Source: Pocillopora damicornis (taxonomy: Eukaryota). Taken from it: a stretch of DNA of 64,000 nt. Below are positions 4,976-59,000 of the stretch, piece by piece. The first letter of the stretch is position 1, and every line of letters begins with the position of its first letter. Made by a program: the position numbers and the translations under genes. Location of the stretch: contig NW_020847128.1 of NCBI RefSeq assembly GCF_003704095.1, forward strand, positions 1-64,000, written 5' to 3'. The notes beneath the pieces were generated by a model that did no database searches, was not told where the DNA came from, and saw only the letters and a program-made list of their open reading frames with translations.

Positions 4976-6655
4976 CCCAACGCAGTGGTCCTCTGAAGCG
5001 TCACACTGTTGATGAAGTCTACACAACGCCTCCATCCGGCCAAATATCTATGCTGATGAGGACACCTCTGGATCCTCCAGTTCCGTTGCGGCCGCGCTCT
5101 AAAAGTTATCCTGACCTTGATATTTTTAAAGAGGTAAGGTGACATTCTGCCCTCCTTCCTGATTTTGATTTTTCACTTCGACTACGGCTTAATCTACTTG
5201 TTAACAGCAAATACTTTAGAGTCACAGTCAATACTTAAACTTAAACATGAAGATGGAACGGGAAACGATTAAAAGTATTAACGCTTGCATTATGATGATC
5301 GACAGGCTCTTCAAATTGGAGGAGAAGACGATAACGAACATGAATCAGGTGAGTTTTGTATCTTTCCTAGAAAATTAATTGTGTGGTTATCTTTTTGTCA
5401 AGAAATACTTACTCACAAGTTTCTGAATATTTCAACATCGTTTGCCGTTCTAATTTATGTAAGGCTTTCACCCGGGGATACTTTTTCTGTTGCTGACAGT
5501 GTTCTTTAAAAAATAATAGAAGAATTTGAATAAGAAAATGAAACAAGCAACCTACAACTGTACAACTATGGTAGCACGATGGAAGTCTTAAATAAAATTG
5601 CAGTCTTTGAAAGCAACCAAGGAATAACTGTAAAATCGCGAGGTAGATCCTCATTTGAGGTGATCCCATGACACCCGCCGACTTACACTCCATTCTAACT
5701 AGAAATGACAGTTTCTAGCCTCGATCCAAATAATCTTACACTTAGAATAGGTCTGTAGATTGTAAATGTCCTTTTTTGTTCTATTTGTTGTTTATTTGTT
5801 GTCTAATTGTTTTACTATTTTGTTGCAGTTCCTGGGGAAATCGTTGCTCGAGGCCCTAAGGCCCTCGAAGCTTACCATCGAGCCATCGAAGAAGGAAAAG
5901 CTAGTGTGAAAAGAGTGCCAATCATGTTCATTGGGCAAGGTCAGTCGGGAAAAACAAGTTTAAAGAGATCACTTATAGGAGAGGAATTCAATCCAGAAGA
6001 AAGCAGTACTATAGGCATCGAAACAGATCCTTCCTATTGTAAAGTATCAACGGAAGTTTGGAAAATGGGAGAGGCAACCCACGAAAGAGATTCAAGCATG
6101 GAGCCAATCTCTTTCGAAAAACACACAGCTCAATACATTGTTAACAGCCTCGAGAAAAACGAACGAAGAAAAAAACTCAAGCCTAGCCCATCTCGTTGCG
6201 ACAATGTATCTGAGAAGAATGGAGGTCCATCTTCCCTAAATCATAATGGTGTGTCATCCGGTGCACCAAAGGTTAAAGCCGTGCCAGAAGAAATAGCATC
6301 ATTAGTTACGAAGCTACTTCAAGTTGTGCGCGTTGACGAAGACAAAGACGAAATCTTTTCAACTTTGTGGGATTTTGGCGGGCAGTCAGTTTATTATTCT
6401 ACCCACCCACTTTTTCTAACAAGAGGGGAAGTTTACCTTTTGGTTTATAATCTTAACCGAAATCCAGAGGAGAAGTCTATATCCCGAGTGAAGCGAGGAT
6501 TATTCAAATCTATCAAAGGCATTCATTGTGAGAAAAGTAATTTGGATTATCTCGACTTTTGGATGTCCTCGGTTTCTAGTTTGGCTCCAAACAGTGAGAA
6601 GCCTCACGAAACCCCTTCAACTTCCATGCAACCAGAACTGCTGCAGCCCCCAGTT
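4976..6655 (+). CDS. ROCO-family (Roc-COR) GTPase, copy B, partial (5' exons missing, runs into gap)
   Basis: Phase-consistent exons 4976-5133, 5306-5348 and 5829-6655(gap). Contains VPGEIVARGPKALEAY, P-loop GQGQSGKTS, switch I STIGIE and switch II LWDFGGQSVYYSTHPLFL. Confidence 0.88.
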
Positions 6656-6755
6656 NNNNNNNNNNNNNNNNNNNNNNNNNNNNNNNNNNNNNNNNNNNNN
6701 NNNNNNNNNNNNNNNNNNNNNNNNNNNNNNNNNNNNNNNNNNNNNNNNNNNNNNN

Positions 6756-9236
6756 TCTTCGGGGGGGACATCAACATGGAAGGTACAAGATACTCACTGG
6801 GTGACCCACTCTCGTCAGACGACGGCCAAGGGCATAACAAACCAAATTTCTCCATCATGTTGATAAGACTGTCGACGTCAAAATTTTCTCGGGTGTCAAG
6901 AAGAGGATCCCACAAGTCTTCTAAAAGTCGCTTTTCCAAGATTCCCCTTTTCTCAAGCTTTTTCCACTGTTCTGTATGTTCCTTTTTACTCTTCTTGAAG
7001 GGCGGAATAGTAATCACCTCCTTGAACACGTCTATCAACCACTGTGGATCCAAAATAACGATTTTGTTTAACTCTCGGGTGTCGTCAAAATGAATCAAAA
7101 TTCTCTGGTCGTGTAGGAGGTTCAACATAGCTAGAAACTGCTCTTCGTTGGAAATTCCGCATACCTCACGTGCAATTCTTTCCGCATCTTCGATGTAAAT
7201 CCATTTGCTTCCGTGCTCAACCGTCTCTTTTACAGCCTTTTCAAACTTCAGCCATTTGATTGGAATAACCTCTTTCAGCTGAGGCAGCTTCTTGGCAGTG
7301 TCCAGCACCCCTTTTCTCAAACGAATAACCCCTTCACATTCTTCCTTACTCCCAGACTTAGTGTTGTCTACGACAAAGAAGTCCAGAATTTGTTTACCAT
7401 AACTTTTTTCCTTCAAATTTCCAAAAATCTCTCTTGCAAGCTCTTCAGGATCTGCACCTTTGTGAGGCTTGTCAGCATGGGTAAAGACCAGAATAACTGG
7501 GGGCTGCAGCAGTTCTGGTTGCATGGAAGTTGAAGGGGTTTCGTGAGGTTTCTCACTGTTTGGAACCAAACTAGAAACTGAGGACATCCAAAAGTTGAGA
7601 TAATCCATATTACTCTTCTTAGAAAGAACGTCTTTGATAGACTTGAATAATCCTCGCTTTACTCGAGATATAGACTTCTCCTCTGGATCTCGGTTGAGAT
7701 TATAAACCAAAAGGTAAATTGCCCCTCTTGTTAGAAAAAGTGGGTGGGTAGAATAATAAACTGACTGCCCGCCAAAATCCCACAAAGTTGAAAAGATTTC
7801 ATCTTTGTCTTCGTCAACGCGCACAACTTGAAGTAGCCTGGTAACTAATGACGCTATTTCTTCTGGCACGGCTTTAACCTTTGGTGCACCGGATGATACA
7901 CAATTATTATTTAGGGAACATGGACCTCCTTTCTTCTCATGTACATTGTCGTAACGAGATGGGCTAGGCTTGAGTTCTTTTCTTCGTTCGTTTTTCTCGA
8001 GGCTGTTAACAATATATTGAGCTGTGTGTCTTTCAAAAGAGATTGGCTCCATGCTTGAATCTCTTTCGTGGGTTGCCTCTCCCATTTTCCAAACTTCCGT
8101 TGATACTTTACAATAGGAAGGATCTGTTTCGATGCCTATAGTACTGCATTCTTCTGGATTGAATTCCTCTCCTATAAGTGATCTCTTTAAACTTGTTTTT
8201 CCCGACTGACCTTGCCCAATGAACATGATTGGCACTCTTTTCACACTAGTTTTTCCTTCTTCGATGGCTCAATGGTAAGCTTCGAGGGCCTTAGGGCCTC
8301 GAGCAACGATTTCCACAGGAACTGCAACAAAATAGTAAAACGATTAGATAACAAATAAACAACAAATAGAACAAAAAAGGACATTTACTATCTACAGACC
8401 TATTATTATTTGGATCAAGGCTAGAAATTGTCATTTCTAGTTAGAATGGAGTGTAAGTCGGTGGGGATCTACCTCGCGATTCTACAGTTGTTCCTTGAAA
8501 TAATAATTTCTGTAATGTTGTAAGGTGTTTTGCTTTGTTGCTTTAAAGACTTTTTAGACTACCATCGTGCTACCATAGTTGTACAGTTGTAGGTTGCTTG
8601 TTTCATTTTCCTACTCAAATTCTTTTATTATTTTTTAAAGAACACTGCCAGCGACAGAAAAAGTCTCCCCGGGTGAAAGCCTTACATAAACTAGAACAGC
8701 AAACAATGGTGAAATATTCTGAAATCTGTGAGTAAGTATTTCTTAACAAAAAGATAACCAGACAATTAATTTTCGAGGAAGATACAAAACTCACTTGATT
8801 CATGTTCGTTATCGTCTTCTCCTCCAATTTGACGAGCCTGTCGATCATCATAATGCAAGCGTTAATACTTTTAATCGTTTCCTGTTCCATCTTCAGGTTT
8901 AGGTTTAAATATTGAAAAGTGTCGTCTGAAGGCCCTAAAATGCTACTCCCCCTTTGACTGTGCTCTAAATTATTTGCTGTTAACAAGTAGATTAAGCCAT
9001 GGTCGAAGTGAAAAATCAAAATCGGAAAGGAGGGGCAGAATGTCACCTTACCTCTTTAAAAATATCAAGGTTAGGATAACTTTTAGACCGCTGCCGCCGA
9101 AACGGAACTGGAGTATCTAGAGGTTTCTCCGTCGGCATAGATATTTGGACTGGAGGCACTGCGTAGACTACATCAGTAGTGCGAAAATTCACAGGAAGAT
9201 TAAACTGAAGACGCTCAGGAGGAGCACTGCGTTGGG
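6756..9236 (-). pseudogene. ROCO-family (Roc-COR) GTPase, copy C, with premature TGA, partial
   Basis: Exons 9236-9052, 8837-8795 and 8321-6756(gap). Same Roc motifs as copy B plus G4 FTHADK and G5 VDN. COR motifs PIKWLKFE, LLHDQRILIHF, ILDPQWLIDVFKEVIT and YLVPSML. A CGA>TGA change at 8269-8271 (AYH*) lies just upstream of the P-loop. Confidence 0.8.
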
Positions 9237-23958: not shown

Positions 23959-26900
23959 CCTCTATATTTTAATGGATAGCACCCCGGTCCTACTTTCCTT
24001 TTCTGCTGGTCTCGACGATCGACTTAGCGTGCGGAAACAGATTCGCTTCGGCTGATGTCATCCAGCTGAAAAAGTGTCACATTTGCATTTTTAATTGCGT
24101 CCGAAACTGTCACCACTGCGTTAGTTGGAAATCAAAATTAAAATATGGCTGTAGGATTCTGTAGTGGTACTACTTCCGCTACAGATTGAGGGTTCGAAAA
24201 ACTTTTGACATTTAAAAAACTACAGCGAGACATTATACAGAAGCTTTTCATATGTAAATTACACTACCAGTCAGTATTTGTTATGAAGTTTAAATAAAAT
24301 TGGGGGCGGCAATAAATTTTCCTTGCTCTACAGGCAGCATGGAAACAGCTGGTTAGGGAGGTTTTTTTTTCCGAACGTGTGCAGTGTTTCTAGAGAGCCT
24401 CTGCTACATAATTTTTAATTTCATCGACAAGTCCTTTGACGTTTAAGGAAACACTTTACACCCCCACAAATCATTCACTTAGGTATGTCCTTTTTCCACT
24501 ATATGATTACTACATTTTATATTACTGCGGTCTTGTATTTCACTTATTCAATTAAAAGTGGAGACATCAAACCAAGATATAAGTGGACCGACAACGCTGT
24601 TATTTGGTAAGACAAATGGAAATTATATCTTAAAAGCCGCCTTGAGGGGGGAGGATTTGGGGATCACATACTTTTAGGGGGCACATGGGGGGTGGGAATC
24701 AGCTGTCACCAACAGAGTATAAGGGGGGAGCTATAAAAGATTGACAGCTGATTAACAGTCAATATCGGGGGGAGGGGGGATACAAAGAGCATCATGGAGC
24801 CTTATGGGGGGATCAAATAAATTTTACTAAGACCCAACAAAAATCTCCTTTGCCCGGCGTCGCAAAACGAGCTATCCCTGAATTAATTTCTTGGAGACTG
24901 TGTGGGGTAAACATAATCACATTATGTTTAATTAAAAATGTGTTATTTCTACTCCATAGTTATTTTCCTTTTTTCAGATGAATACAATATTCGAGGCAAA
25001 AAAAAATAAAAAAGCGACTGAGAGAGTATTTCCAGTAAACTTGAAATCAAGTAACACATTTTAAGCTTTTATGTTTCGACGCCCTCAGTTGACATTTCTT
25101 TATTATGATAATGAAGTACTTGAACTGAAAACAAATTGATTAGAAATTAATTGAAAAACTTATTGAAATCAGCGAAGTGGCTTTGGCACCGGAAAGGAAC
25201 TGGTGCTGAGGTGGGATGGACGACCTTCCTCTCCATGACGCAACATTCGTATCAGAGAAATTGCAGGATAAGCAAACTTCTCACGTTGCTCAAAACTGAA
25301 ACACATACCGTGAACTCTCGCTAATAAGACTTAGGCTCACACAACTTCGCACGGGAGGGCTTATATCCGAGGGAGGCTTATAACCAGAATAAAGAAAATG
25401 CTTCAAAATGATCAAAACGCGTTTTGCAATTACTGGTTTTTTAATTAAGCTTCAAAATGTCATAATAAATAGAGTTCCTATCTCAAGGTGGGAGGGGGTG
25501 GGGCTAATATGTGTTTTTAACGGTATCCAAGGAACAGCTTTTGGCCCAAACAAACGTCTGGGTGAAAGAGCTTTCAGTTTTGTTTCAACCTGTGTTGTTG
25601 GGCTATTTATTTAAGGGACCGTTGACCTCCTTTTTATGACCAGGATGACACTGGGTGACAGTGTGTACTTTTGTGCCTCAGACGATATTTACATCAGCAA
25701 CGACAAGAGCATAATTTATGCCAGAATCATAGCTAAATAAACGTATTCAAAGAGGGTAAAATAATTTTATTTTGTTAATACCGAAACGGAGCAAAGTAGT
25801 GTTTTATTTTTGCTGCTACCACCGTTACTGATATTGAGTAAAATAACTTTGTTTTATGATTAAGGACACAGGGTAAATTGCTTATTAAAACTGTAATTCT
25901 GATATCGATATTTAGTACATACTAAAACAGAGAATAGCGTTGAAGGCGCGCTGTGGTTGGCTACTCCTCTGGTATTCACCTCCGAGCAACTCGTGCGATT
26001 TTTGCGCCTGAAATGATTGTAATCGTTGCAGAAAAAAATGAGTTTAATCATCTAATTATGCCATATTATCTTACTGTTTTAGTATATACTAAAACGACTA
26101 TTCACCCCAGCGTCGATGGCTAACGGTGGATATTTACCTAGCCACTTCGCGGCACGGTAAATAACAACTATTAGCAACCTCCAGTTCGGTGAATATTCGT
26201 TAAACATCATTCCCTTTGGACTGAAAAGCAAGCTTTGTAGGTCAGTATATTAGTCTGTCATGACTTTTCAGGTTTCAAATGACTTCCTTTCATTGTGGAT
26301 GTCAATGTAAGGAAAATTAGATCCGGAATGTATTGTTTTTTTTTTTTATCCATCCATATAGCTTATCTCTTATTTGAGTGTTGTACACATAATTGCAATA
26401 AAATACCCAAAAGGAACAGTAAGTATTTGATATTTGCTTGATGTTGCCATTTTTTCCATCTTAACCCAGTTAGAGAATGCCAGCATTTCAAATTAAGTAG
26501 TCATATCATTGTCACACATACTGGCAGTGACAACTCTTTTGGAACACCACTGGCGCAGTTCTCTCACCCTTCCTGCTCTCCCTCCCCTCCCCCCTTTAAA
26601 GGTTGTCCATTGCCAGTATGTGAATAGTTTCTCACAGAATAACTTTGAGACGGAGATCAGGGTCCCAAAAATGTGATTGGAAGTGTGGATTACGGTTTTA
26701 CTTCGTCTCTCTGTCTTTTCTTTTCTTTTCTTGGTTTTTGCGAAAAAAATGATAAATTAACACCTTTTAAAGGCGAATCGTAGCTCATGACGTTATTACT
26801 ACTACTCAACCTTACAAAAAATTTTCTCCTATCCCAACATCACAATATAATGTTTGTGTCTGTCTGAGTTTGTACGAGTATTCTCCATCATACGTTAAAG

Positions 26901-26977: not shown

Positions 26978-29900
26978 CTATACCATAGGCTCTTCTTCGG
27001 ATAATGATACACCGGTCGACCTCTTTGATTTCCCATTTTTCTCCGAGGGCTCCATAAAAGCAGTGTCTAAAAAGGGCGACACTGACTCTATCAGGCGTCC
27101 TGATATTCCACCCTCCTTCTTTTCCTTTCCAGGTCCCTTGATATAACAAAGGACGAGGAAACATACAATGAAACACAGAGGGATTGCCATGGTGAATAGA
27201 ACTCCAAACTTTGTTAATGGCGAAGGTTTTTCGGGTTCTATTCCTGGATCTGGGAAAAAATGGTGAAAGTGGATAATTGAAAAGTCATTGCTTATCGACT
27301 GGGGAATTTTCGTGGGGAGGGGCGGATAACGTGGTTTTCAGGGGAAACGGAGAAGGGGAACAGTCGTCACCAACAGAGTATGAATGGGGGAACAGTAGAT
27401 AATGAACTGAGTGAGAATATTACAGAACCTAATGGGGGATCAAGTAAACTTAATCGCGACACAACGAAAATCCTCTAATTTCCCCCCCTCCCCCCCCCCC
27501 CCACTTACTCTTTCTAGGCGATAAACAACGACTGTTCCTTAGGGTGTTTCTTAATTTATTGAGTTACAAAAGAATCACTTTTGAGTTAAAAATCTGTCGT
27601 CACGCACTCACCAGGTGGTTTAGCAGCAGGGGGCTTGGTAAATAGCTTTGTGTCATTCGTGTCCTTTGTGCTTGTAATTCTAGTCTCTTCTCTACTTTTA
27701 ATTTCGGTTCTAGCCGTCGAAAATTCTGCTGCAATCATTAACAATAAGAACAACAACAACTTAAGCGTGCCCGTAATCAAGTTTTTAGCAATGTTTTGAA
27801 TAGAAAATGACAATTAATTCTAATTATGATAATTAGAGGGTATCAGAACCCTGGAATAATTTAGCAGTTAAAAATGACAAGGAGCTGGATGAAAATTGAA
27901 TTGAATTTTTAATTGTTAAAGCGGAGGTATAGTATGGCCAGTATCAAACCCTACCCTACAGTTACATACATGGACAATAACATTACAAGATAAAACTAGT
28001 TACAGAGAGTATCATCAGTACAATGAACGATGGCGCACCTCAGGACGTGACTGAAATTTTATCAAATAAACAGTTTTAGTCCGTTCCTCGATTAAATTCC
28101 AGATCATAGACAACTCAATGTCTTTTATTATATCTGCCATAATTAGTTCTAACACTGGGAATTTAACATGATTGTTTTGCTGCGGATCTTGCGGATCATC
28201 GAAAACAGAAGGCAATTATCTATTTTATGTAAAATCAATGCAACATTAGCGTGAAACTGTAAGTTTTAAGGATAACGCGCCAGTTTTGTGAATTACTTTG
28301 ACGATGCCATCGAGATAAAGACAAACATGCGATCTTATTTAACTTATACTCACGTGGTCTACAAACTGTGCCATTATTCTCAGTCACGTATCCATCTTTA
28401 CAATGACAAATGTAACTTCCAGGTGTATTAACACAGAAATGAGGGCATCCACCATTTTCATCTTTACACTCGTCAATGTCTGAGAAAGGGATAAATAGAG
28501 AAGAGATAAAGAACAAAACAACAACAACAACAACAACAACAAAAAAGGATAAAATAATATTTGTGCGACATATTTTATGTTGTGTGAAATACGAGTGAAT
28601 ACCGTCTGGGTAAGTTTAAGGTTTATAAACTTGTATATGTATGGATTTGAAAGCGGATTATCACAGCTGAGTTACACTACTCATGCTTATGTGAACAAAG
28701 GGTACTTGAAGTTTTGACTCTTCAAAAGCCGGAGAAGGTTTTTAAAGAGGCTCTGTTACCCGCAAGGATATCAAATGTCTTTGAGCACATCGTAAATGCA
28801 GTCAAGCGTTGTATTTAGGTCAATAACAAATATTTTTAGTTTAATTTTTAATATTGTAGTGCACAGTTGAAAATTTCACACTGATAATTACGCAATATGT
28901 CATTAAATCATAATATTATTATTATTGTTAATATCGTACAAATGTATCTTGCCTAGATGTGAATTTTACCCAGGCAAATTTGGAATGAATATAGTGAGTG
29001 GGATGTATCACATATATGCTCAGTAGTATCTCAGGAAACGAAATCCTTTGCCAAGGAGATTTCAAACTTCAAAGAATTTTAGTAGTAGGTGGTGGGCAGG
29101 TGATTAGTACCTTGACATTTTCGTTTTTCTTTGGTCGCTGTATAGCCTGTCCCGCAAGAACATTTATAACTTCCAGGGACATTGGCACAACGTTGGCCGC
29201 TACAGATATTATAATTGTTACACTCGTTGGCATCTGAAAGAAAAATCAGGTTGATCGCCAAGGAGACCAAGGAACAAGGAAAGAGTTAAAAGTCCAAAAC
29301 CTTAAGAAAACCATTATAACTCATAGTTTACCTTTTACGCAAATATAGCATCCTCGAGCAGAGCACTCTCTTCCATACCAGTATATACTTTTACTCGGGT
29401 GTATTTCTGTGCAGTTTTTGTCTAAACGTTCGTTCATTGGCTCCTTCCTGTGCCATTTTGTGTACTGAGGCTTCACATTGAAATCATCCCGCCACACCCA
29501 TTGGGACAAATTTTTGGGATTTCGACGGAGTCCTATCCAGGTTCCTTCCGTCAAGCAACGTGAGCTCGAATAACGTGAAGCGACAAAAGCGTTTTGCTCG
29601 TCCGAAGTTACTTTCACGAGATCTCCCCCAGTCTCTATACAGCGTTGCCGAGCGTTGGACCAAGTAGCAGTACTGTTGGAGAAGAAATAGCAGTAGCCCG
29701 CTAAATACGACCAACGTTTTGGACAAACGTTTCCTAAGAAGAAGAAAATGTTTATGTGGTTAACGAAAAAAATAAATGCAATGACCTTATAGTTTGAAGT
29801 ACATGACTAAATATTTTTTTAAAAACTTTTTTTAGTTTGGTAAAGAATTTATAAGCAATGTGCCTTTGAAAGACTTCATTACATTGAAAATTGACCAGAG

Positions 29901-32660
29901 AAGGCCTACATGAGGGACGTGAATTTCAACCCTAGCTGGTCTTCTGTTTTGAACAATTTCATTTTAAGTGAGGAGCCATCAGCCATCACCAAAAAAAAAT
30001 TCAACTGAATGGCAGGCTTTCTCCGAAAGATAAGCTAAAAATATTTACATTGAAAATATTTTCATTCCTCTTTGCCTGCGGGTGGTAAATAGGGAAATAA
30101 TTTCCATCATGTATGTGGTTTTGTTCATGCTGTGATACGCTTACTCATCAAGATAAAGCTAAGTCAAACAATGTGGCTGATTTGACTTCAGGTCCTCTCC
30201 GCTATTTCAAATAATTGTGTGTCACTTTTTCATTCTGTTAACATGACTGATTTCCTTTTTTTTAAACTTCAGTTCACGAAGAAATTTCTGTGAAGTTAAG
30301 AGTTTTAATGGATCAGACTCAGAAATTAAAACTTTACATATTACGAGAAGATAATTATTTGTAAAGAAGGGAGGTGGTTTTGTTAAAGGTTGAAAATAGA
30401 TAATTTTTCATTTGCTATTTCATTCTCACTCAGTACTTTCTCGTCTTCTATAAACACCCATCGACTTTTACAAAACTGAAAACTGAAAAAAATTGTACAT
30501 CGAGGAAGCCCTACGTCATTAACAAAAAAGGAAATTTTAAGAATAGGCTCGCGCTAGGAAACAGTACTTGTTTGAAAGAATTACATTTTCAATTTGCGAA
30601 ACGTGAAAGGAAATTCAATTTTTTGGCACCATTTGGTCTGCATCTGCTCTTAAGTGCACTCGTCAAATATTTCAAGAGAGGCTCTTAGATATAAGCGCCA
30701 ACGCACTACAATTATTCGGAATTACGTTCTCCATATTTTTCATTATGATTTTACATCAAATGTGTGGTATAGCAGCAGAAACAGAGAACATGTCTTATAT
30801 TTTAGTTTATGTTCGTCGTCTTTTGTCTCGTTTTGCTTTGTTTTTGCAGACATTTTTCAAACCCATGAATGCATATTATCGTCGTTAACTCGCAGTTAAG
30901 CCATAAATTGTAGTAAAGAAAAACACCACCCGAACAGCAGATAACGCGGAGTCGTAACGCAATCGCGGTACAGAAGAATGAATGACTTGGATATATAAAA
31001 TTTTCAATACTGCGGTGAACCATGAGGCAATCTTAATTAGTTCGGTTTTCCATGATTAATTTTGACAAATTGTATGCTCGGAAATTGCAAATCTTTTAAA
31101 AAAAGAAAGGAATTGAATTTCCCAGGTGGAAATAGCTAAATACTTAATGGTGAATGTGGTTTGGGATAACCACAAGTTATCTATATGCTCAACACAGCTG
31201 CCCAAAATAAAATCTCTTTACAAATCATTCTATTTCTGCTCCTTTTAGCACCCAGTTTTACTCCCAAATTCTGGAAGAAACGCAATAGATGTAAGCTAAT
31301 CAACAAATGGGAAATCGTCTCGAGTCGACCGAGTGATTCGCTGTTTTCTAAGTCTTGATTTTCGGAAACAGCATCGCCGAGATTTTCATTGAGCGCTCGC
31401 GTATTTAGATGATTAGTATAAATCGATTTTCATGTCAATAGAAAATTGAGCTCATTTCTCTTAATTCGAAGCGTTTGCTTCTGTATTTTAACACAGAAAA
31501 CCCTAGGGTCTAATTAAACGTAAAACCCTTAAACCTCGCCTTTTACCCTAGGAGTATTTCAAAGGTAAAACAAAAGGGTGCCATTAACCCAACCTAAGCC
31601 TGTTCTCGCGTATTAACGATGAAGGCGAAAGAACAATTAGTAAAGCGGACTCCATAAAAGCTTAGATTGTTTTTTATGAGCAGCCCAATCAATACAGCTA
31701 ATTACTAGCACAAACCACATAAACTTCCCAATAGATCCATAAAATTTACCAGAATTTCTTAATAAATTTGAAAGAGTTTTAGATCGACCGAGTCAATTTA
31801 AGTCTAAATGTTACGGTTACTTCTCTAGCGATAACATTTGGCGATGACATTCACAACCTAGTGTTTGTGTTTTCATGTTCTGCATTTAATTAAATTTCAA
31901 GAATTGAGACGGTAATTGGTTGTGTGACGTTGTCCGGTTTGATCAAAAATTTTTTTTTTTCGATAAATTCGTTTTCTCGAAAATTAACTCATACAGTAAC
32001 ATTTGCCGAACAAGATTGTGTGATAATTCTGCGCGATATTCATGATAATGTGTGTATCTCCAGCCACCTGTTCAAGCTTATTTGCAAACTGGTTACAAAA
32101 CATATTTCGCGAATACTACCTTCTTTCTGGATTAAGTACTTCATTCTATCAAATACGTTGGGAAGAAGCATGGCAAATCCATAGTTTTACACGGAGCGTA
32201 AACCTCTAGGAAAAACCTCTTTACAAACAAGCTAAAGCTAAAATTGAATTGGTAACAATGAGAACACGCATAATCATGTAAACTACGCATGAAATCTGGG
32301 TCGATATTCTCGACTTCACGCTCTTCGGTATAGTTTCGATTGCATTACAATTATTTACAGCATTTGAATATTTATTTTTAGGGCCATCTCAGCAATATTC
32401 CTCGCAAGAGTTTTGAAGTTCGTTTTCTTTGACTAATAGCTGTACCATGGCGTAACACTGATGAACCGGCAGAGGTAACGTTCTTGTGCTTACGATCGCC
32501 TAACCCGTAAAAATTCTAGCTGTATAACCTTTAAATCGCATCCGAAATCTCCAATACTCATACTGAATCCTTTATACATACCTTGAACCCTGCAAAAGGC
32601 GTAGAAAACAACGGCAGAAGCGAAAAAGATGCGAAATCCGTGAGCCGTACAGCGCGACAT
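26978..32660 (-). CDS. C-type lectin + 2 calcium-binding EGF + Ser/Thr stalk + TM receptor, ~372 aa, 6 exons
   Basis: Phase-1 exon chain: 32660-32582 (signal peptide), 29733-29332 (CTLD: CPKRW..GYCYFF..TWSNARQRC..GGDL..WIGL), 29233-29111 (DANEC EGF), 28479-28354 (DIDEC EGF), 27728-27612 (T/S/P-rich), 27249-26978 (TM and cytoplasmic tail). Confidence 0.9.
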
Positions 32661-34343
32661 GACAGCGCCATTCGTGTTTTCCACTGGTACGACGGCTTAC
32701 GTTGCGTGGGGAAACAAAAGCTCAGTGGGTCGTCGAATAAAATGGCAACAAATTCCAATTTGTTTCCTAAATACAAAACTATTTAAATACTTGACACGAG
32801 CGCACTGCTTTGCAAACTTAATACTAATACAATAAACACTACGAACAATAACGTTTTATCGATTGCGATTGTAACTGTACACGTATAATTCTCCGGGTTT
32901 GGATTCCAATTATTGAATGAGTTTACCATACAAAACATGATATATCTGCATAACGTATGACATAGTTGCATGATAAGTCAACCACCTATCTCGTTTTCCT
33001 CAAACAGCCATTGCGAGATTGTTTTAATCGAGGGACAGTTTCTTTGCTCAAAGAACTTTAAAAACAGAAACACAAATTTCATTCCATAATTTGCAGTGAT
33101 TAGATATTTTAAAAGTTAAGAGAATAGCCAATCTGAAAGTCTTGATTTTTTGCCATCTGCTCCTCAGCTCCTATCGAAAAGTTTAATTTAAAAACGACTG
33201 GACGCTGTCATATTCTTAAGTACCTGGTGAGTGCATTTCAGATCCTCGAAGCTGCAAATGAAGTTCGCTGTTATCTCAGCTACTATACAGAATTCATTTT
33301 TTACTTGTTGCAATAACAGTGAAAATTTATCGATATTTGTCACACGATTGGCGAATCTGATTGGCTCCCTTAGGGTTGACAGTCAAAGTTATTGAAGACA
33401 CGGGCATTCTTATAAGTGTTTTACACATAGGGGGAAAAACCGTTTACTGAACTAAAGAATACCCTCCGTCTTACGACTGGCCAATCGAGATGACTATTCG
33501 ACGACAAAATGCAAATTTACTGATAAATTCAAGCTTTCTCAGAAACCGCTCCAAGTGATCAATTTAAACCAGCCGCTGGTAAAGGTCAGTTAAGGCTTTT
33601 CGGAAGACGGAAAGAGCTGGTAAAAGATAAACTTTAATTTGTTTCGATTTCCGAATCGAAATCAGGGCCAATGTTTTGAAAAGGAGATGTTACTTTTAAT
33701 ATATGGCAAAAGCAAAAAAAACATAGATAAACTACGTTAAATGTTTTTGTGAAATAATTACAAAACTAAAAAAAACAGATTGAGGTAATCAAAAACTTCA
33801 TGATTCACACCCTTACCAAGGACGTGCGTTAAGTCAAAACCAGATTCATAGTTCGCCATTTTATGGAGTTTTCATTTCGGTCTTTTTGCATCTGAGGCCT
33901 TCATTACCTAAAATACATAGGAGACTTCCCTCCGACAATTCGTAGCATTAATTTATTTCTTCGAAAGAAACGTAGACTGAATGTTAAGCTTATTCTTTTT
34001 TACTATATGATAATGTCTATTCCGCTCCGAAGCGGTTCACAACATTGTATTGAAATAATGTGTTGTATGTTGTACTGAAATTTTAAAGCTTAAAAAAATA
34101 ACTATGAAGGATTTTTCGTTGTTACCCAGCCAGCTTGGTGCCTTTAATAANNNNNNNNNNNNNNNNNNNNNNNNNNNNNNNNNNNNNNNNNNNNNNNNNN
34201 NNNNNNNNNNNNNNNNNNNNNNNNNNNNNNNNNNNNNNNNNNNNNNNNNNTGATCCAATGGAAAATTCTTCGGAACTTATTGAAAGACAATAAGGAGAAT
34301 TACTAATGACATCTTGAGAGTGAAAGAGTTACTGCCAACACAC

Positions 34344-35816
34344 CTGACAAGAAGGTGAAGTTGCCCCAAGCACGCGTTTCTTCCGTTAATGATTTTGCAA
34401 CCTTCTCTGTGTCTCCAATCTCTAGGCGCATTTTTGTATAGGGACAAGGAAATGTTTTGATATCTAGTAACACAAGTGACAGTCCGACCCTCCTCACAGG
34501 ACTCTCCGCTGACATAAATGGCGACTGCAGCTCTTGTCGTGTCCGCATGTAACTAAGAAGCGTGATCTTATTAACCTCATCCTGTGAAGACATTGTGACA
34601 TTTGGTACTCATTTTTACTAATCAGTTTTGTCATGTATGTTCTTTATATTCAATTAATTCCTTAAATTATTCCTCCTGTTGTTATTTCATTCCGTTCCTT
34701 TCTTGTCTTCGAATTCTTTTAACACCATCTAAGCATTATCCAGATTGTCAAATAATCAAGAGGATAATGAATGCAAAAACAGATAAACCACGATTAGAAA
34801 CGGTATGGATACGGAACCAGGAGTGGTGGTCTTCATTTCAATTTTCTTATAGGTCTTCGTTGTGAGTCAAATCATCGTAATCGAGAGAAGCACTTAACTC
34901 CATGTCAAAAAGTGCGGGTTCATGTCCCCAGGATTAACCAAAGGAAATAATAGGGGCTGCCTGCGATGGACTAACATCGTATCTAATTCACTGTAAAATG
35001 AAGTTTGTCTTAGCTCTGGAGCCAATTTACCCATGGAGCTGTTTTGATACCAATTTTGGGGCTTAATTGACCATTGATATACTTGTAAGATAAATGAAAA
35101 TACTTCAAGTCTCATACACAGGATATAAACGCCAGCAGCCATAACTTCTGAGAGCAGTTTTACTTTTTCTTTTCTTTGTTTCTTTTTTTAACCTTACCAC
35201 AGTGATTAGATAATCCTCTGCCAAGCTCTTCCACTCATCGTACAGTATTTGGGAAAGGGAGAATTTGGTGTTCTTTGTGTCTCCAGTAAAGTGTCCATCG
35301 TCATCCACAGCTAAAACTGCCAAGGCTAAGAAAGGTTTATTTTTTATCAGTTACAACGAAGGAAGGGAAAGATCTCTCCATCTCTCTTCTTATTTTGCCC
35401 TCCCTCATAATATTAATCATGCCTCTCCCTAACACATAGTTAAGATGCCACAGAAATTTAATCGCTGTGTGCACTGAACACGATGTAAAGATCCGAAGAA
35501 AAGTAGTTGCTTTCATGTAACTTATAATGCACTTAATTTGTCAGGATTTTAAGCTACCTTTCTCCTCAAAGGAAAGAAAGTGTCCATTCATTGTAAGCGT
35601 GAAGTTTGCCAATTCCAAAAACAGCCAATGACTCGCAGCTCCATCGGCTTCATTTGCTTACCGGCAGCTTCAAAACACGCCAGCTGAATAAGCTGCTACA
35701 TACCTAATGACAATTACTTTGCTTTAGCCAGAAGGAACGTTTCCCAATTCATTGCTGCCTGTCTTGTAAAAAGTTCCCTCTCCTCCTGGTTTTGGGACTG
35801 GAGACAAAGCAGACCT
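34344..35816 (-). pseudogene. SABATH-family SAM-dependent methyltransferase (Methyltransf_7), C-terminal half, partial, with in-frame stop
   Basis: Exons (gap)35816-35704, 35325-35198 and 34581-34344 splice in phase: GLLCLQSQNQEERELFTRQAAMNWETFLLAKAK*LSL|ALAVLAVDDDGHFTGDT...LYDEWKSLAEDYLITV|DEVNKITLLSYMRTRQELQSPFMSAESPVRRVGLSL...FPCPY...TRAWGNFTFLS. Matches the family motifs Q-x3-W-x2-FL-x2-RA-x-EL, W-x2-L-x3-G-x-I, Y-x-R-T-x2-E-x3-PF and R-[AS]-W. Confidence 0.72.
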
Positions 35817-36335
35817 NNNNNNNNNNNNNNNNNNNNNNNNNNNNNNNNNNNNNNNNNNNNNNNNNNNNNNNNNNNNNNNNNNNNNNNNNNNNNNNNNNNN
35901 NNNNNNNNNNNNNNNNATCACCAACTAAACAGGCTCTTGATTGTTGAACAGGAGTAATGGGCTCCTGTTGTTGAACAAATTCTCCTTATCAGCACCTTAG
36001 GAGATGTATAAAGAACAGTCTGGAGAATATGCATTCTGATGTTAGGGCGTAAAGGCTTGACCGCCATGAGCGACTTTATCTAATTTGTTCTAACAGAATC
36101 ACCCATGACAGGAGCCCGGTAATGGGCTCCTGCCATGAATGAAACATAAAGGTCATGTAAACGAGAAACTGATCAACATCATCTCGAAGAAGCTAAGCTC
36201 CTTATTGTTAAAAAAAAAAGATTATTCATGTCAGTTCAGTACCAAAGGAAATCTAAAGAAAGAGTATGGACATTATCAAGACAGAAAGGAAAGAAATCAC
36301 TATTTACATATTGATCAGTTGTTTGTTTAAAGCAA

Positions 36336-36540
36336 GAGGGTCAATGAGATAATGGCTTTTAGGGCTACAGATTGAAATTCTGGCTATTTAACGGCTAATA
36401 GTTACTTTCTTTCCATTGTTGTTTAAAAAAATTTCGCTTGACCCTTTTACGGCTAACGGTTAAAATCCGTCAATTTTTGCGCCCAACAACTAAACTTTTT
36501 AGCTATTTTACGGCTAACCGTTAACCCCATTGAAACCCTC
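36336..36540. mobile_element. Short MITE with GAG...CTC termini and 7-bp TSD
   Basis: TIRs gagggtcaatg / cattgaaaccctc. AAAGCAA flanks both ends (36329-36335 and 36541-36547). Internal acggctaa repeats. Confidence 0.7.
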
Positions 36541-39500
36541 AAAGCAATAACCTAAGGAGGAGTACGTCTAAGCAATCAGCCCCCGCTCATTGCCGCGGAC
36601 CCCGAAAAGCGCGGAAAGGTTCAAGCTTCTTTTCTAAAACTCCCTTCTGACCATGAATATTTATTTTTAACTCACACGTTGCTTTGCAGGATCTTTTAAA
36701 AGTAGCAGTTTTTACTTTATCAGTAATGCAGTCTGGTGTCAAGGTAGAAATTTTTTTTACATAGAGAGAAATAAGTGTGATCCACCGCTAAATCTCTGCA
36801 ACACCCTCATCCTCCCCTCACAAAAAAATAAGTAGATAAATAAATAAAATGACTGAGTTTTTGAAGACCCAATCGACTCCTTAAGATTAAAACACACTCA
36901 AGCTGTTTTTCAGGAGGTCAAATGGAAAAATATGAGTTGAAAGTTCTTTTTTTTTTCGCCTTAAGGAGGCGCCTTTCCTCTGCTTTATCAGCTAATTATT
37001 ATTTGTAATGTTCTTCCGTTCGGCTATCCTCGTTTGAATTAAATATCCTATCGATTTTTTTTTCTTTACATCTTAATGATGATTTTTAGGCATACTTTTT
37101 TTCTTTGTCTTACACGAACCATTTGTGCGATTCCAGGAAGGTACATTAAATTGACCTCCCAGGCAGTTTTATTTTCATTTAAACTAATAATAACGATAAC
37201 AATAATAAAGAACAAATCTGAGCATCCGAGTACTTTTCCTTACATAGTCCAATATTCATCGACTCAGACCAACGTTAATTTGACGTTGAGTTAGTCTTAA
37301 TTTGAGAATGCAGTCTTCATTGTGCTAATCTTTATCTTTCAAATAATCAAAGCTTTTCGAGACTTAAACTAGGTCTATAATTATTAAACCATGTTATAAA
37401 AACAACGTGGAATCATGCTGAATTTTCCGAAATGATCTAAGCTGGTACACTTCCTGGGGACTGATTGCTTGTTTTGATTAAAAATGATTGTATGTGATTT
37501 TTCAAAAAAAATGCATCAAAATTGAAATGATGTAAAAGTTTCATATAAATGTGTTTTCAAATGTAAATAGATATTCTGACTGAATAAGCGTTGCATTCCT
37601 TAAAAAAGATGTGGGGAACTGGGAGACGTCTTCTCCAAGGCTTAAAGTTACACTGTCTATTTTATTCATCTGTGAACAGAATATCTTTCGGCTCGTGGCA
37701 TTTTATGATATGTTGACATTTCCATTGGCAGGTTTTGATAAAGAAGGCCTTGAAGGGTTGTTGAAAATATCAGAGAGCAGTGGTAATAACAAGAAACTCA
37801 TGAATAAAGCCGTTACTTCAAAGCAAAACTTAATGATTGTTTCTGACTCTAAGGTAGCTAATCTGTTCCCTGGACAGCCTGGTAATATTTTGGTAAGGTT
37901 GAAATATCCTTGTTGTTATTGTAAATGGAACGATAATCGACTTTCTTCTGTTCCGATGCGTTAGGACCGTGTAACTCGTGTTGCTACAATTTCGAAGTAC
38001 CTAACGCGAACTATTTTGAAAACTGTACAACCAAGAGAAAATTAGGAGACCATCATTTTCTCTCGTTATTACTTACTGTAAAGTTTACAAACTTAGGCAA
38101 AGTTTCAATGGCAACCCTAACAATAGCGTTGGGCAATTGTTTATCCAAAATCTTCGAATGGTCTACGCGATGTTTCAGTGTCTAATTTTTAATTTTATTT
38201 CATTCAATTTCTTGACACTCATCAATCATTTCATTAAAGTAAAGAACATTTCAATATCAGGAGGACATTTTAGGCCAATGATGTTGACTCAGAGAGCGGT
38301 TTGAAGTTTGCACAAAAGGTGTAAGCAGGAGCCCATTACTTGAGCTCTTGGTGTAAGTGAATACGAAGTTCCTACTCTTTATTTATGACCATTTTGGCAC
38401 TTTTCCGTATCGCTCAGGGGGGTTTACAGACATCTCGTTTCCCTGTCAACTTATCCCCCACGGGTAGAGGCGATGAAAGAGATTATTACGAAAGAAATTG
38501 GGCATTTTCAGACATCTTGTCTCCGCTCAAAATGACCTTCAATTCCGTATAAATCTGGCAATTGTGTGAGGTGTGTTGTTCCATTACCCGAAATTGGGAA
38601 CGCTATATTATTTGCATTTTGATGCACAACGCAAGGCAAATGCCTGCGAAAAAGTTTCCATTTTCTTTTTGCGTTCAAGAAATTAAACTGTTAAATTTCA
38701 CCTGGTAAGTTGGGCATACAAATGAAATGAGCATACAAATGGTTTAGTTATCCTAATGTAGTCCTTTCATCATGAATCCGCTTAACTTTTCTTGTAAATA
38801 AGGCGTTTTACTGATTTCGTACTCCTCTACGGGTTTCAAATTTACCATTGTTATAAAATTGATTGGGGCACAACAAACGAAACGTATGATAGACAACGCT
38901 CTAATACGAAGATGTCGTTTTCGAACAGGGTCCATCGAGGGCATTGATTTAAAAGAAATTATCGACTGATACTTCTATTATTATAGTTTTTTGAAAGCGA
39001 ATAAGTGAAATCTTTCATAGAAAAGGATTGATTTTGTTACGTCCTTTGCACGTGGCGCTTTGTTAACAATTTTGTTTGAAATTGAAAGAGTTTTAATTAA
39101 AATGTACCCAAAAGAGAACACAAAGTATTCTTTTTGTTTCTTCGGCTATAGAAGAAAAATCGTCTCCGAATTACGATTTTAAGATGGCCTCTTAACACTA
39201 ATGGCTAAGTGGATATAATTACTCTATCCCTCTTGCTGGCCATTTTAATATTTTTAATAGTACGAACGCTTTGTTTATTTGACTGCCGGTAATTACCGGT
39301 GGTAAACTGTAATGCCTGTGTCATTTGTCGCCATTATAGGCCAGGTCTTCAACCAGCGTATTCTCTGGACGCGTCGGGTGTAATTTGATGTGAATGTTGC
39401 CAGAAGCCTCATTAAAAAGCAAGCTTTTCAAAAACCCGCTCGTTAAGTTGTATTATCTTTGGGTTAATTTTGAAACTTAGAAACGATGTTTGGACAAGCT

Positions 39501-43108: not shown

Positions 43109-43266
43109 CTTTTATTCATTGACGGCTAATTAGGAAGCTGCTTGGATCGACGGAGTAATAATTTCATTTCGGTTCGATCATCTGTTCTTGTGATGTTTTA
43201 TTAGTACCTCTCGCTGCGTGGACGTCCTGTCATTGAGAGCAAAAGCACAACGAGTCAACACACGCT

Positions 43267-46929
<3,663 letters not shown>

Positions 46930-56095: not shown

Positions 56096-59000
56096 TCATT
56101 GGAGTTTAGATATAAGCCACGCCCTAAATCTGAACAATATGAAGAGGAACAAATGCACCATTGTTTGCGTTACAATTAACAAGAAGAACACCATAAAAAT
56201 GGCACGACCTGGTTCTTTTTCGTAATCAATGATCTGGTATATGTAATTCAGGCCTTCCTTATTCTTTCCCCCAGCGCCCCAGTAAATCACGCTGAAAAGC
56301 ACGTAGATCGAAGAAAACGCATGAGGATAGAAAAAATGCAGCAGACGGATGGGAATATTACTAAATACGACTTCTATCAGCATAAAAACGGCAGCTAAAA
56401 TATGTTCGTTTATGTTCAAACCATCGATTGCTCCACCTTTTACAGGGTACAGCGTTGACCAATAGAAAATGGTGATTACCAGCGAAGTAACACTTCCTAT
56501 GTCGAAAAGTACCCACAATACCTTCTGTGGCCAGCTCAGCCCGTCTTCATCATCTTCTTTAGTGGCATAGGATGTCCCTTCGTCTTCGGTCTCGTTTTCA
56601 TCTTCGGAAGACAATCCCACGATGTAGGTTTCCGACTTGAAACGGCGAGGTCCGTAGCCAGCCGGGTCATCTTCGACTCCAGATCCGCAGCAATAGTGGG
56701 TAGTAATGAACATGGCAAGCAGAAAGTAAGCGGTTACAAAGGTAAGGACCCAGTTACTAAGGAAAATGAACCAGTAGTTACCATCGCTAAAGCCACTGTA
56801 GATCAACCATGACAGAAAGTAGAAGGCGGCGATGAGGCGGTAAATGAGGAACAAAGGAAGGGGTAGCCACTGTTGAGACAAAATACTGCCAGTCAGTCGA
56901 TACCGAGAGCAAAGATAATCTTCTTACATCACCCTCCCAATCTGTAACATACAATTTATAAATCCGCCGGGAACTGATTTACCGCAGATTGAGAATCCAC
57001 AGACTAACCAAACCTTGTAAAAACTGTTTTTAGATTTAAGAAAAATTCGACTACATACTTTTAGTCAGTAACCTGGCCTCTTACTCTGACTTGTCAGTCT
57101 CTCTCCTCTCTTTCCCATCCCTGTAGTACCTTTCCTTAAAACAAACTGCATGCTACACAGGCAGGCATGCCTCCCTTGTATAATGACCGCGCGTTGTAGT
57201 TTTGCGTAGAAGGCAGGTGCACTGATTTATTTAAATATAACGGCGTCCATGGTCAAATTTTTCAGTTGCCCATTTGAAAACAATATCGAGCTGTTAGATT
57301 ACACATTGAGACTCAAAACCGTGGTGAGAAGCAAATTTTCGTTCAAAATTTTTAAAGGGGAGATGAAAATTATGAAAATGGTTTTTGAAGCATACGTATA
57401 TTCTTTACACATCCTGGGTGAAAAGTTCGCCTGGGAAAGGCACTTGGTTGAAAGAGAATGTGAATTGTTGGTCGACAGTTAGTGTTGGGTCGTGTTATTA
57501 AGATGTACTGGATCATTAACGTATGTTTCTGAACTGTATTTCCACTGGGTTCTATGTGATTGCGCGCACGGGTCCTTACGAGTCATGGATACTTATACTT
57601 CGCTCACAATTCGAAGGAAAGGTCGTTGGTTTTCCATGCTAGAAAAAATTACGATATTAATTTTTTTATCGTAGGATTTTAGAACATACAGGTTCTAAAC
57701 GACCAGCACAATCACTTGCGCTATCTTCGATTTTAGGGGCCACATGTACTTGGCACGAAACACACGTTTTGCACCGTTGAGTGATTGCAATTTCTGCGCG
57801 GGCTATACCAATACAATCTGAAACTACTGGAGCCCGATATTTTTTTTCGCGAGTAAAGCGAGGTTTTTGTTATGAAAACAATCGTATGTCAATACTGTTT
57901 CACGACCGAAGTCATTTATGAACGAAAATTTTTATAGTGCTTCTCAGCATCATTTACCTTCTCTTGTTATTGTCTTAGGAGTAATTTTAAAATTTCTAAT
58001 TTGATGAAATAGAAATATAAGCAGAACTAATAAACGGTTATGAATAATTATAACAATCTTCTGTGGTGTGTTTCAAATACATTTGTTAAACAATCAGAAA
58101 GTCTTGTTCGCTCTTAATCTCATTAAACTGCATATGGTGAACGTACCTTATAAGAGCAATGAGTATCTGATTCATGAAGTCTACCAAGTGTGATAATTTA
58201 AAACAGTTTTCGGCTGTGCAAGTTGTTAGCGTTGCATAAAATATTTTAGTCAATATTTGTTTATTTTACAGATAATTGCGAATTAGTGGGAGCTCAAAGA
58301 GGCTCCATTCCCATGATGTAACTCTCCTGAAGTCCTGCGGGACTCCATGAAACTTCTGCTGCTGTGTAACTTTTTTAAAGTTGAAAGATAATTACGCTGT
58401 TGGCTATGGAACCTTAAGTTCGTGCGCGGAAACCGTGTTTGAATAATTAGATCAAGTAGCATCATTTAAGCGAATGAAAATCATACAAGGTAATTTTTTA
58501 AAAAGGTAAAGATTTTAACCGATTTTGTTCGTAATGTAATCTTTTGATACCGTCAGTTTTATGAACACGAAGTTTTAATGGACTTAACATACCTGTTATC
58601 GCAGTATTTCTAGAAAGTATTTGACTATATTGATAACTCACTGAAATCCCTTGAAGGGCGACCGTCGAAGCGCGCCACTTCATAATTATTACTCTTCCCA
58701 TGAACAGTAAACGTTGATCCAAAGATTTTGGCGCCATTACAGAACCACAACGATCTTTTACTTTTCTTGAAATGGGGGTCTCTCACCAATTTTAAGAGAA
58801 TGCATTTGTTACAAATGTCAGTTTCATAAATGGCTTGACAAAATTCGTGATCCAGTAACTCACGTCTTATTTATGCCTTCTAGATAATGTATTCACTGGC
58901 AGATAAAGGCTTGATTTACAAAGAATTCAGTGCTCTTTGCCATTTACAAGGACTTTCATTCATTGTGGGAAGAAAACTAAACTTCTCTTCATTTTCGGAA

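What the first reader, a model, noticed from the sequence alone, without database searches (positions are those of the whole stretch)
34344..35816. Hidden intron-containing SABATH (plant hormone/caffeine-synthase family) methyltransferase in an animal genome
Seen: three exons that the ORF track shows only as unrelated or wrong-frame fragments splice into a continuous peptide with the SABATH C-terminal motifs. Known: characterised SABATH enzymes are mainly plant methyltransferases for salicylate, jasmonate, IAA, gibberellin, xanthines and nicotinate, with bacterial and fungal homologs; they are not part of the vertebrate or insect toolkit. Inference: the details (DxxGxxxGxT, SPVxxxGL, PCPY) recall bacterial members from memory, while GT-AG introns and a host MITE fragment on the same contig argue for a host gene. 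It may be an old horizontal acquisition that makes methylated small molecules (for example trigonelline/homarine-type betaines or methylpurines; speculative).
Basis: partly seen in the sequence, partly recalled or inferred. Interest (0 to 1): 0.7.

Follow-up and report, generated by a model that had tools for sequence, protein, structure and literature searches.

The report
Broken coral SABATH methyltransferase copy
A reef coral carries a broken third copy of a plant-type methyltransferase gene; the family is already on record in corals and other sea animals, and its intact members likely methylate a small nitrogen compound, perhaps making the osmolyte homarine, which is untested.

Summary
The three exons are real and homologous to Methyltransf_7 (PF03492) proteins: the read-through scores 125.6 bits on my own profile, shuffles at most 2.2, and is 60% identical to an intact Oculina orthologue. 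They do not give an intact peptide. Exon 3 has an in-frame TAA, also seen in DNA of two other studies. Exon 4 lacks four conserved codons. RNA contigs of a second haplotype without the stop are mis-spliced. The SAM-binding half and the last exon are absent from the assembly. It is a host gene: animal neighbours, intron positions shared with two paralogues, grouping with bacteria rejected (p-AU 8e-7). The family is not new in animals: hits in corals, anemones, a brachiopod, krill, amphioxus and a snail, and Acropora METHYL3, a published DMSP-synthesis candidate, is a member. No coral-specific transfer is seen. The open question is the substrate: the carboxylate-binding Gln is missing in all 55 rows checked, and gene context points weakly to homarine. 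The scan had no note on the animal gene, only on bacterial relatives, which gave the homarine lead.

The parts
35704..35816 (-). 3' part of exon 3 (numbering by the paralogues; first coding exon not located), cut by the assembly gap; ends in a phase-1 GT donor at 35703-35702
   Evidence: 71% over 38 aa to P0167; same intron position in paralogues A and B and orthologue L138
35714..35716 (-). In-frame TAA at an invariant Glu of the RAKEL motif; a second haplotype reads Glu
   Evidence: same letter in DNA contigs of X2 and X5, both forms in X14; Glu form in RNA X15, X16
35326..35703 (-). Intron 3, single copy in the genome; RNA of the other haplotype reads through its first ~137 bases, past in-frame stops
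35198..35325 (-). Exon 4 remnant, lacking the first four codons of the orthologous exon; GT donor at 35197 used in RNA
   Evidence: (12-base gap against L138 and L110)
34582..35197 (-). Intron 4; orthologous acceptor AG at 34583-34582; RNA contig uses a cryptic AG at 34554-34553, 29 bases downstream (frameshift)
   Evidence: X16 record 9
34342..34581 (-). Exon 5, open, 80 codons, with SPVxxxGL, PCPY and R-x-W motifs; donor reads GTGTGT where two orthologues have GTATGA
   Evidence: 66% over 83 aa to P0166
35817..35916 (.). Assembly gap, likely longer than its 100 N; would hold the 5' part of exon 3
34151..34250 (.). Assembly gap; the last exon is likely hidden here or missing
   Evidence: 415 bases of RNA contig X16-9 beyond 34342 lie on nothing in 32500-38500; no last-exon match
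35961..36058 (.).
   Evidence: 2263 candidates, 40 scored at 88-93% (self aside)
34281..34331 (.). Short high-copy repeat piece just after exon 5
   Evidence: very high summed depth in all four DNA runs

Best explanation
The stretch is the broken remnant of a third coral paralogue of a SAM-dependent SABATH-fold (PF03492) methyltransferase, with a stop codon and a damaged exon, and it likely died recently and makes no enzyme. Shown: homology, exon structure, stop codon, loss of four codons, mis-spliced RNA of a second haplotype, two other copies in the genome, full-length orthologues in other stony corals. Inferred: intact members bind SAM through the DYGxADGG motif and transfer the methyl group by proximity, as plant SABATH enzymes do. 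Because the carboxylate-binding Gln is absent they likely do not make methyl esters the plant way; the acceptor I think most likely is the ring nitrogen of a small pyridine acid, picolinate to homarine (about 0.3), ahead of other N-acceptors, a carboxyl group or the DMSP sulphur step.
For: Read-through 125.6 bits, best of 500 shuffles 2.2. Groups with five full-length proteins, three named Desmophyllum or Oculina, at 99-100% SH-aLRT; all five hit PF03492 at 122-126 bits. TAA in long DNA contigs of 2 of 4 runs laid (two studies), both forms in a third, no cover in the fourth. 9 of 35 family-conserved columns changed, against 2-5 in the five intact orthologues; 25 of 95 subfamily-invariant columns against 3-10. 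RNA contigs in 2 of 4 runs (one study) skip the exon-3 donor; X16 joins 35198 to 34552; a Logan protein P0001 reads exon 4 out of frame; a near-identical protein P0074 shifts frame inside exon 5. Model of P0167: pLDDT 90, TM 0.85 to 5F2N. Gln25-equivalent is Gln in 0 of 55 rows (C 23, A 20, T 6, gap 3, other 3; register). A Shewanella protein fuses the domain to an amino-acid dehydrogenase and a sarcosine-oxidase/NikD-like flavoenzyme and sits in the eukaryote-rich clade next to the animals. 44 of 80 bacterial loci carry at least one of four cluster genes within 3 kb that earlier scan notes equate with the homarine breakdown operon (lead, identity not checked by me).
Against: dN/dS on the window's branch is 0.20 (95% 0.11-0.32), not above the 0.42 (0.23-0.76) of the two orthologues compared, 154 codons: no sign of long neutral decay, so loss must be recent and intact alleles may exist. 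Three of the nine changed conserved sites (D196, R204, E207) are normal in the second haplotype. Contigs drop minor isoforms, so a correct splice form could be missed; the RNA evidence is one study plus single proteins. The 5' half was never seen. No enzyme assay exists; the 80 bacterial loci are only 31-37% identical to the coral protein; the subfamily differs from paralogue A at the cap residues (KVLDT against NTIGC) and may have had another substrate.
Confidence: 0.78

Rival explanations
1. The locus is a working gene with a segregating null allele: the assembly holds the broken haplotype, while other colonies or sister species make an enzyme from the haplotype without the stop.
For: The second haplotype keeps D, R and E at the invariant sites; it is transcribed (contig depth about 12); dN/dS 0.20 on the branch; its RNA shows an orthologue-like start of exon 4.
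Against: Its assembled RNA is out of frame at two junctions and P0001 likewise; exon 4 is two codons shorter than in orthologues even there; G253Y, A289V and S330G are not among the listed differences, so seem shared; no full-length Pocillopora or Stylophora protein of this subfamily among 8 hits or 1 hit (weak, word-limited searches).
Confidence: 0.17
2. Intact members are the sulphur methyltransferase of coral DMSP synthesis (MTHB to DMSHB), as proposed for Acropora METHYL3.
For: METHYL3 (1.2.14921.m1) is PF03492 and by eye carries the same motifs as paralogue A; it was picked for likeness to a diatom candidate (PMC5557254). Loss of the Gln fits any non-carboxyl acceptor.
Against: METHYL3 did not respond to salinity change; the diatom candidates were not verified (PMC5395565); the coral DSYB described in a 2025 preprint is a Methyltransf_2 protein.
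Confidence: 0.1
3. Intact members are carboxyl methyltransferases that esterify fatty or aromatic acids, like mycobacterial FAMT and plant SAMT or JMT.
For: Closest solved structure is FAMT by sequence and fold; the Trp151-equivalent is kept in 4 of 5 subfamily members and most animal rows.
Against: Gln25-equivalent, kept in FAMT, SAMT and loganic acid methyltransferase, is absent in 55 of 55 rows; the N-methylating IpCS3 also lacks it.
Confidence: 0.2
4. The piece comes from a symbiont, a bacterium or a mis-joined contig, or from a recent horizontal transfer into corals.
For: The 1566-base island lies between two gaps, so physical linkage to the neighbours rests on scaffolding; many bacterial relatives exist (466 of 518 stretches).
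Against: Intron positions match two paralogues and coral orthologues; holding window plus 20 bacteria together is rejected, p-AU 7.7e-7; GC 35% like the window; a host repeat piece lies on the same island; the scaffold carries T-box, GPCR, ZP, C-type lectin and Roc-COR genes; relatives in cnidarians and four bilaterian phyla.
Confidence: 0.03

Closest known systems
Acropora millepora METHYL3 (1.2.14921.m1; PMC5557254 Table S4 and sequence file; first proposed by Raina et al. 2013, not read)
   Same: PF03492 coral protein, 63% to a Branchiostoma protein per the table; by eye the same motifs as paralogue A.
   Different: It corresponds to paralogue A, not to the window's subfamily (window read-through about 46% to A, 60% to its own orthologues); it is intact; activity untested.
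Full-length coral orthologues P0166 (Desmophyllum pertusum), P0167 and P0169 (Oculina patagonica), unnamed P0165, P0168
   Same: 54-60% identity over the read-through, one clade, same exon borders in genomic orthologues L138 and L110.
   Different: They are open and keep the SAM motif; annotated only as hypothetical or uncharacterised; P0166 has an aberrant C-terminus.
Mycobacterial fatty acid O-methyltransferase (PDB 5F2K, 5F2N, 5F2O; species M. marinum recalled)
   Same: Best solved relative: E 9.6e-27 for P0002, TM 0.85 and rmsd 2.3 for the P0167 model.
   Different: 22% identity; keeps the carboxylate-binding Gln, which the coral and marine bacterial proteins lack.
Plant SABATH enzymes (SAMT 1M6E, IAMT 3B5I, xanthine N-methyltransferases 2EFJ, 2EG5, 8UZD, 6LYH)
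   Same: Same fold (TM 0.65-0.77) and Pfam family.
   Different: About 20% identity; annotation names such as jasmonate or gibberellic acid methyltransferase on animal proteins are transferred by similarity and carry no test.

Membership tests
Methyltransf_7 / SABATH (PF03492) | Pfam hit above the curated cut-off, window sequence itself | tested here: inconclusive
   0 of 4 single pieces, no window match in the genome scan; an intact orthologue's exon 5 alone also misses; the joined peptide could not be handed to Pfam.
Methyltransf_7 / SABATH (PF03492) | Pfam hit for the nearest full-length relatives | tested here: met
   5 of 5 orthologues at 122-126 bits, cut-off 29.8; read-through scores 125.6 bits on a profile of proteins.
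Methyltransf_7 / SABATH (PF03492) | SAM-binding motif I (D-x-G-x-x-x-G) and D-x-P-x-N-D-F motif | tested here: inconclusive
   Present in both paralogues and all five orthologues; the exon is missing from the assembly at this locus.
Methyltransf_7 / SABATH (PF03492) | Rossmann-like methyltransferase core with helical cap | tested here: met
   For orthologue P0167 only: TM 0.85 to 5F2N, 0.77 to 1M6E; next families below 0.5.
SABATH carboxyl methyltransferases | Gln25 (SAMT numbering) that binds the carboxylate | tested here: not met
   0 of 55 rows have Gln (register; feature named in PMC10193983). Not in the window's remnant.
SABATH carboxyl methyltransferases | Trp151 (printed as Trp115 in PMC10193983; position 151 by the 1M6E alignment) | tested here: met
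   4 of 5 subfamily members and paralogues A and B. Not in the window's remnant.
SABATH carboxyl methyltransferases | SAM-dependent methyl ester formation | not testable with these tools
   Needs an assay.
Functional protein-coding gene | Open frame across spliced exons | tested here: not met
   One stop in 160 codons, confirmed in other DNA; assembled RNA out of frame.
Pseudogene | Neutral evolution (dN/dS near 1) | tested here: not met
   0.20 over the whole branch, which averages a long functional history with any recent decay; differences between haplotypes listed: 6 non-synonymous or stop, 3 synonymous, 9 sites.
Homarine synthase (picolinate N-methyltransferase) | Homarine from picolinate and SAM | not testable with these tools
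   No gene for this step was found in the papers searched.
Horizontally acquired gene | Animal sequences nested within a donor clade in a rooted tree | tested here: inconclusive
   Animals cluster with unnamed and protist rows; a Shewanella sequence lies among eukaryote-type rows; no outgroup.

The most novel reading that the evidence does not exclude
The intact marine-invertebrate members of this family, including the Acropora protein long listed as a DMSP-synthesis candidate, are the unidentified homarine-forming picolinate N-methyltransferase of sea animals: an old gene shared by cnidarians, brachiopods, molluscs, crustaceans and amphioxus, expanded into at least three subfamilies in stony corals, one of which is dying in Pocillopora.
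Probability: 0.3. Interest if true: 0.72.

Novelty: new member of a known kind. Interest (0 to 1): 0.3.

Why it matters
The window's own copy matters little: it is a decaying paralogue in an annotated family. Its value is as a pointer. Marine invertebrates have an untested small-molecule methyltransferase family whose coral member has been carried in print as a DMSP candidate without support from expression. Homarine is among the most abundant marine osmolytes and lacked characterised synthesis genes in the 2021 paper read (PMC8269262). A one-step assay of paralogue A would decide between homarine, DMSP and ester formation, and would tell whether the coral host makes such a compound itself.

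Tried and rejected
First in-script splice was one base off and gave 7 stops; corrected. Pfam scan of single exons: nothing. Search with exon 5 alone found 1 protein among 60 candidates; only the profile search reached orthologues. The idea of a transposon inside intron 3: the stretch is single copy and has no clean inverted repeats; the DNA alignment favours a plain 12-base loss at the exon-4 start. Whether the 239-base RNA skip is a cryptic intron or a genomic indel is unresolved: its ends are not GT-AG and no DNA run showed the join. Run X12 gave no cover and X17, X19 no spliced piece among those listed: no evidence either way. dN/dS did not show relaxation. The coral genome gave no match to the dehydrogenase or flavoenzyme parts of the Shewanella fusion (7 matches, all methyltransferase; 9 candidates, low sensitivity), and none of the 160 bacterial and metagenome loci had those genes nearby. 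ESM Atlas with a Nematostella homologue only returned PF03492 clusters. NCBIfam has no model for the family. No complex prediction was sent. Ten paper searches found no paper on animal SABATH enzymes by title or listing; the Acropora record surfaced only in a supplement. The FAMT paper, Hall and Gurin 1975 and the homarine catabolism paper were not held.

Full report
Setting. The window is the first 64 kb of contig C3763 of G000 (234 Mb, 4393 contigs). The finding lies on a 1566-base island between two N gaps. The organism is a pocilloporid stony coral: the two paralogues fall in 90% clusters with named Pocillopora and Stylophora proteins, and coral RNA runs hold the stretch. The scaffold carries ordinary animal genes: Roc-COR, GPCR, C-type lectin, EGF, ZP, rolling stone and a T-box gene (Brachyury-like by recall).

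Observation. A PF03492 scan of the genome gave 4 matches at two other loci, here A (C3577) and B (C2757), and none in the window. A search with full-length paralogue A added the window as a third and last locus (11 matches). Exons of A match three window pieces. Joined in a script at 35704/35325 and 35198/34581, the pieces keep the frame for 160 codons, have GT-AG at each junction, hold one stop at codon 34, and score 125.6 bits on a profile of homologues; the best of 500 shuffles scored 2.2. The read-through covers residues 174-337 of the 383-residue orthologue P0167 at 60% identity, with a four-residue gap at the start of exon 4. The exon with the SAM motif, the 5' part of exon 3 and the last exon are not in the window or elsewhere in the assembly; contigs from other runs extend 375-391 bases into the upstream gap and an RNA contig has 415 unplaced bases downstream.

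Is it broken? The TAA is not an assembly error: contigs of X2 and X5 (two studies) span the island with one other letter, not at the stop; X14 holds both a TAA and a Glu form; X12 gave no cover (4 runs laid). RNA contigs of X15 and X16 (2 of 4 runs, one study) come from the Glu haplotype, 96-97% identical in the exon 3 and 4 pieces. They read past the exon-3 donor for about 137 bases, where the window has in-frame stops, rejoin at exon 4 out of frame, and in X16 enter exon 5 at a cryptic AG 29 bases too late. P0001 shows the same read-through and another shifted acceptor. P0074 (92%) shifts frame in exon 5 and P0079 (73%) ends early; these are single unnamed records. The window changes 9 of 35 family-conserved columns, intact orthologues 2-5. 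Against an old death: dN/dS on the window's branch is 0.20 (0.11-0.32), no higher than between the two orthologues, and three of the nine changes are specific to the TAA haplotype. I read this as a gene that worked for most of its history and died recently; a still working allele is not excluded.

Relatives. All 72 proteins found with exon 3 of A carry PF03492; 17 have animal names: five coral genera, two anemones, Lingula, krill, Branchiostoma and Batillaria, none a vertebrate or insect (not a test of absence). A profile of exon-5 relatives found 8 proteins, five of them full-length members of the window's subfamily. In a tree of 76 rows (20 of 78 bacterial sequences, every fourth; quick method, LG+G4) the window sits with these five at 99% SH-aLRT, next to paralogue B's lineage; the 25 named animal rows lie on one side of a 99% branch against 21 bacterial rows, with unnamed and protist rows among them. 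Holding the window with the bacteria is rejected (p-AU 7.7e-7). Genomic orthologues L138 and L110 have the same exon borders. So this is an old animal gene family; if it came by transfer, that was before cnidarians and bilaterians parted, and my tree, lacking an outgroup, cannot show it.

In print. PMC5557254 (passages; supplement rows and sequence) lists Acropora millepora METHYL3 as PF03492, first proposed as the DMSP methyltransferase and not responsive to salinity. By eye it is the orthologue of paralogue A. PMC5395565 and bioRxiv 2025.12.05.692423 (passages) describe the DMSP candidates as unverified or assign the step to another family. PMC10193983 (passages) names the Gln and Trp signature. 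PMC8269262 and PMC9321204 (passages) state that homarine synthesis involves a SAM-dependent methyltransferase and had no characterised pathway. PMC13640505 and PMC4878875 (passages) added nothing on this family; Table 1 of the latter was not read. Other papers were seen as listings only. Supplements of bioRxiv preprints were not available and could bear on the claim that no enzyme of this group has been assayed.

How intact members likely work. The P0167 model (pLDDT 90) matches mycobacterial fatty acid O-methyltransferase best (TM 0.85) and plant SABATH enzymes next. The SAM motifs are kept, so SAM-dependent methyl transfer is near certain. The acceptor site differs: the Gln25 position holds Cys, Ala or Thr, never Gln, in 55 rows, while FAMT, SAMT and loganic acid methyltransferase keep Gln and the N-methylating IpCS3 does not. 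Gene context: near 80 bacterial homologues I found a 550-residue orphan (31 loci), an Ldh_2 dehydrogenase (31), DUF3726 (11), an M19 peptidase-like gene (7) and TRAP transporters (22); 44 of 80 loci have at least one of the first four. Earlier scan notes equate these with the homarine breakdown operon and describe a Synechococcus operon of this methyltransferase with an amino-acid dehydrogenase and a NikD-like oxidase; I could not read the paper behind them. I did find the same three domains fused in one Shewanella protein, placed near the animal clade. That homarine is common in marine invertebrates, and that a homarine-forming enzyme was once purified from a snail without a gene, is recalled and comes from no call. 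Together this makes picolinate N-methylation my first guess, at about 0.3. The coral genome showed no match to the two partner enzymes in a low-sensitivity search.

Verdict. Observation partly confirmed, interpretation partly supported. The locus is a likely recent pseudogene of a known, annotated but untested family. Interest 0.3, almost all of it from the substrate question for the intact paralogues.

Noticed in passing
window 43237-45525 (+), possibly to 46929: T-box gene about 7.4 kb from the finding; T-box Pfam hit E 6e-11; looks like Brachyury by recalled motifs.
   Followed up: partly
window 5807-8268: Two near-identical Roc-COR GTPase pieces on opposite strands around the gap at 6656-6755: an inverted duplicate or an assembly artefact.
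   Followed up: no
window 15219-18389 (-), 22966-23961 (-), 28235-29806 (-), 56096-56923 (-): ZP-domain gene, single-exon rhodopsin-type GPCR, C-type lectin and EGF exons, rolling stone protein.
   Followed up: no
window 3161-3625 (-): Transposase-related fragment (HTH_Tnp_4).
   Followed up: no
G000:C3577:595637-598345 and G000:C2757:136113-140037: Paralogues A and B, with open exons where sequenced (A has gaps in exon 4) and many transcript-sized contigs in their clusters: the right targets for an assay.
   Followed up: partly
P0047: Shewanella surugensis triple fusion of amino-acid dehydrogenase, sarcosine-oxidase/NikD-like flavoenzyme and Methyltransf_7; its methyltransferase falls among eukaryote-type sequences on a long branch.
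   Followed up: partly
L120:10-2790: Intronless, tandemly repeated copies of a divergent family member (39% to P0167) on an unnamed metagenome contig.
   Followed up: no
P0116 cluster: Family members in marine filamentous cyanobacteria (Okeania, Moorena, Trichodesmium, Dapis).
   Followed up: no
L043:830-2479: A 550-residue protein with no Pfam or NCBIfam hit is among the commonest neighbours of the bacterial homologues (31 of 80 loci).
   Followed up: partly
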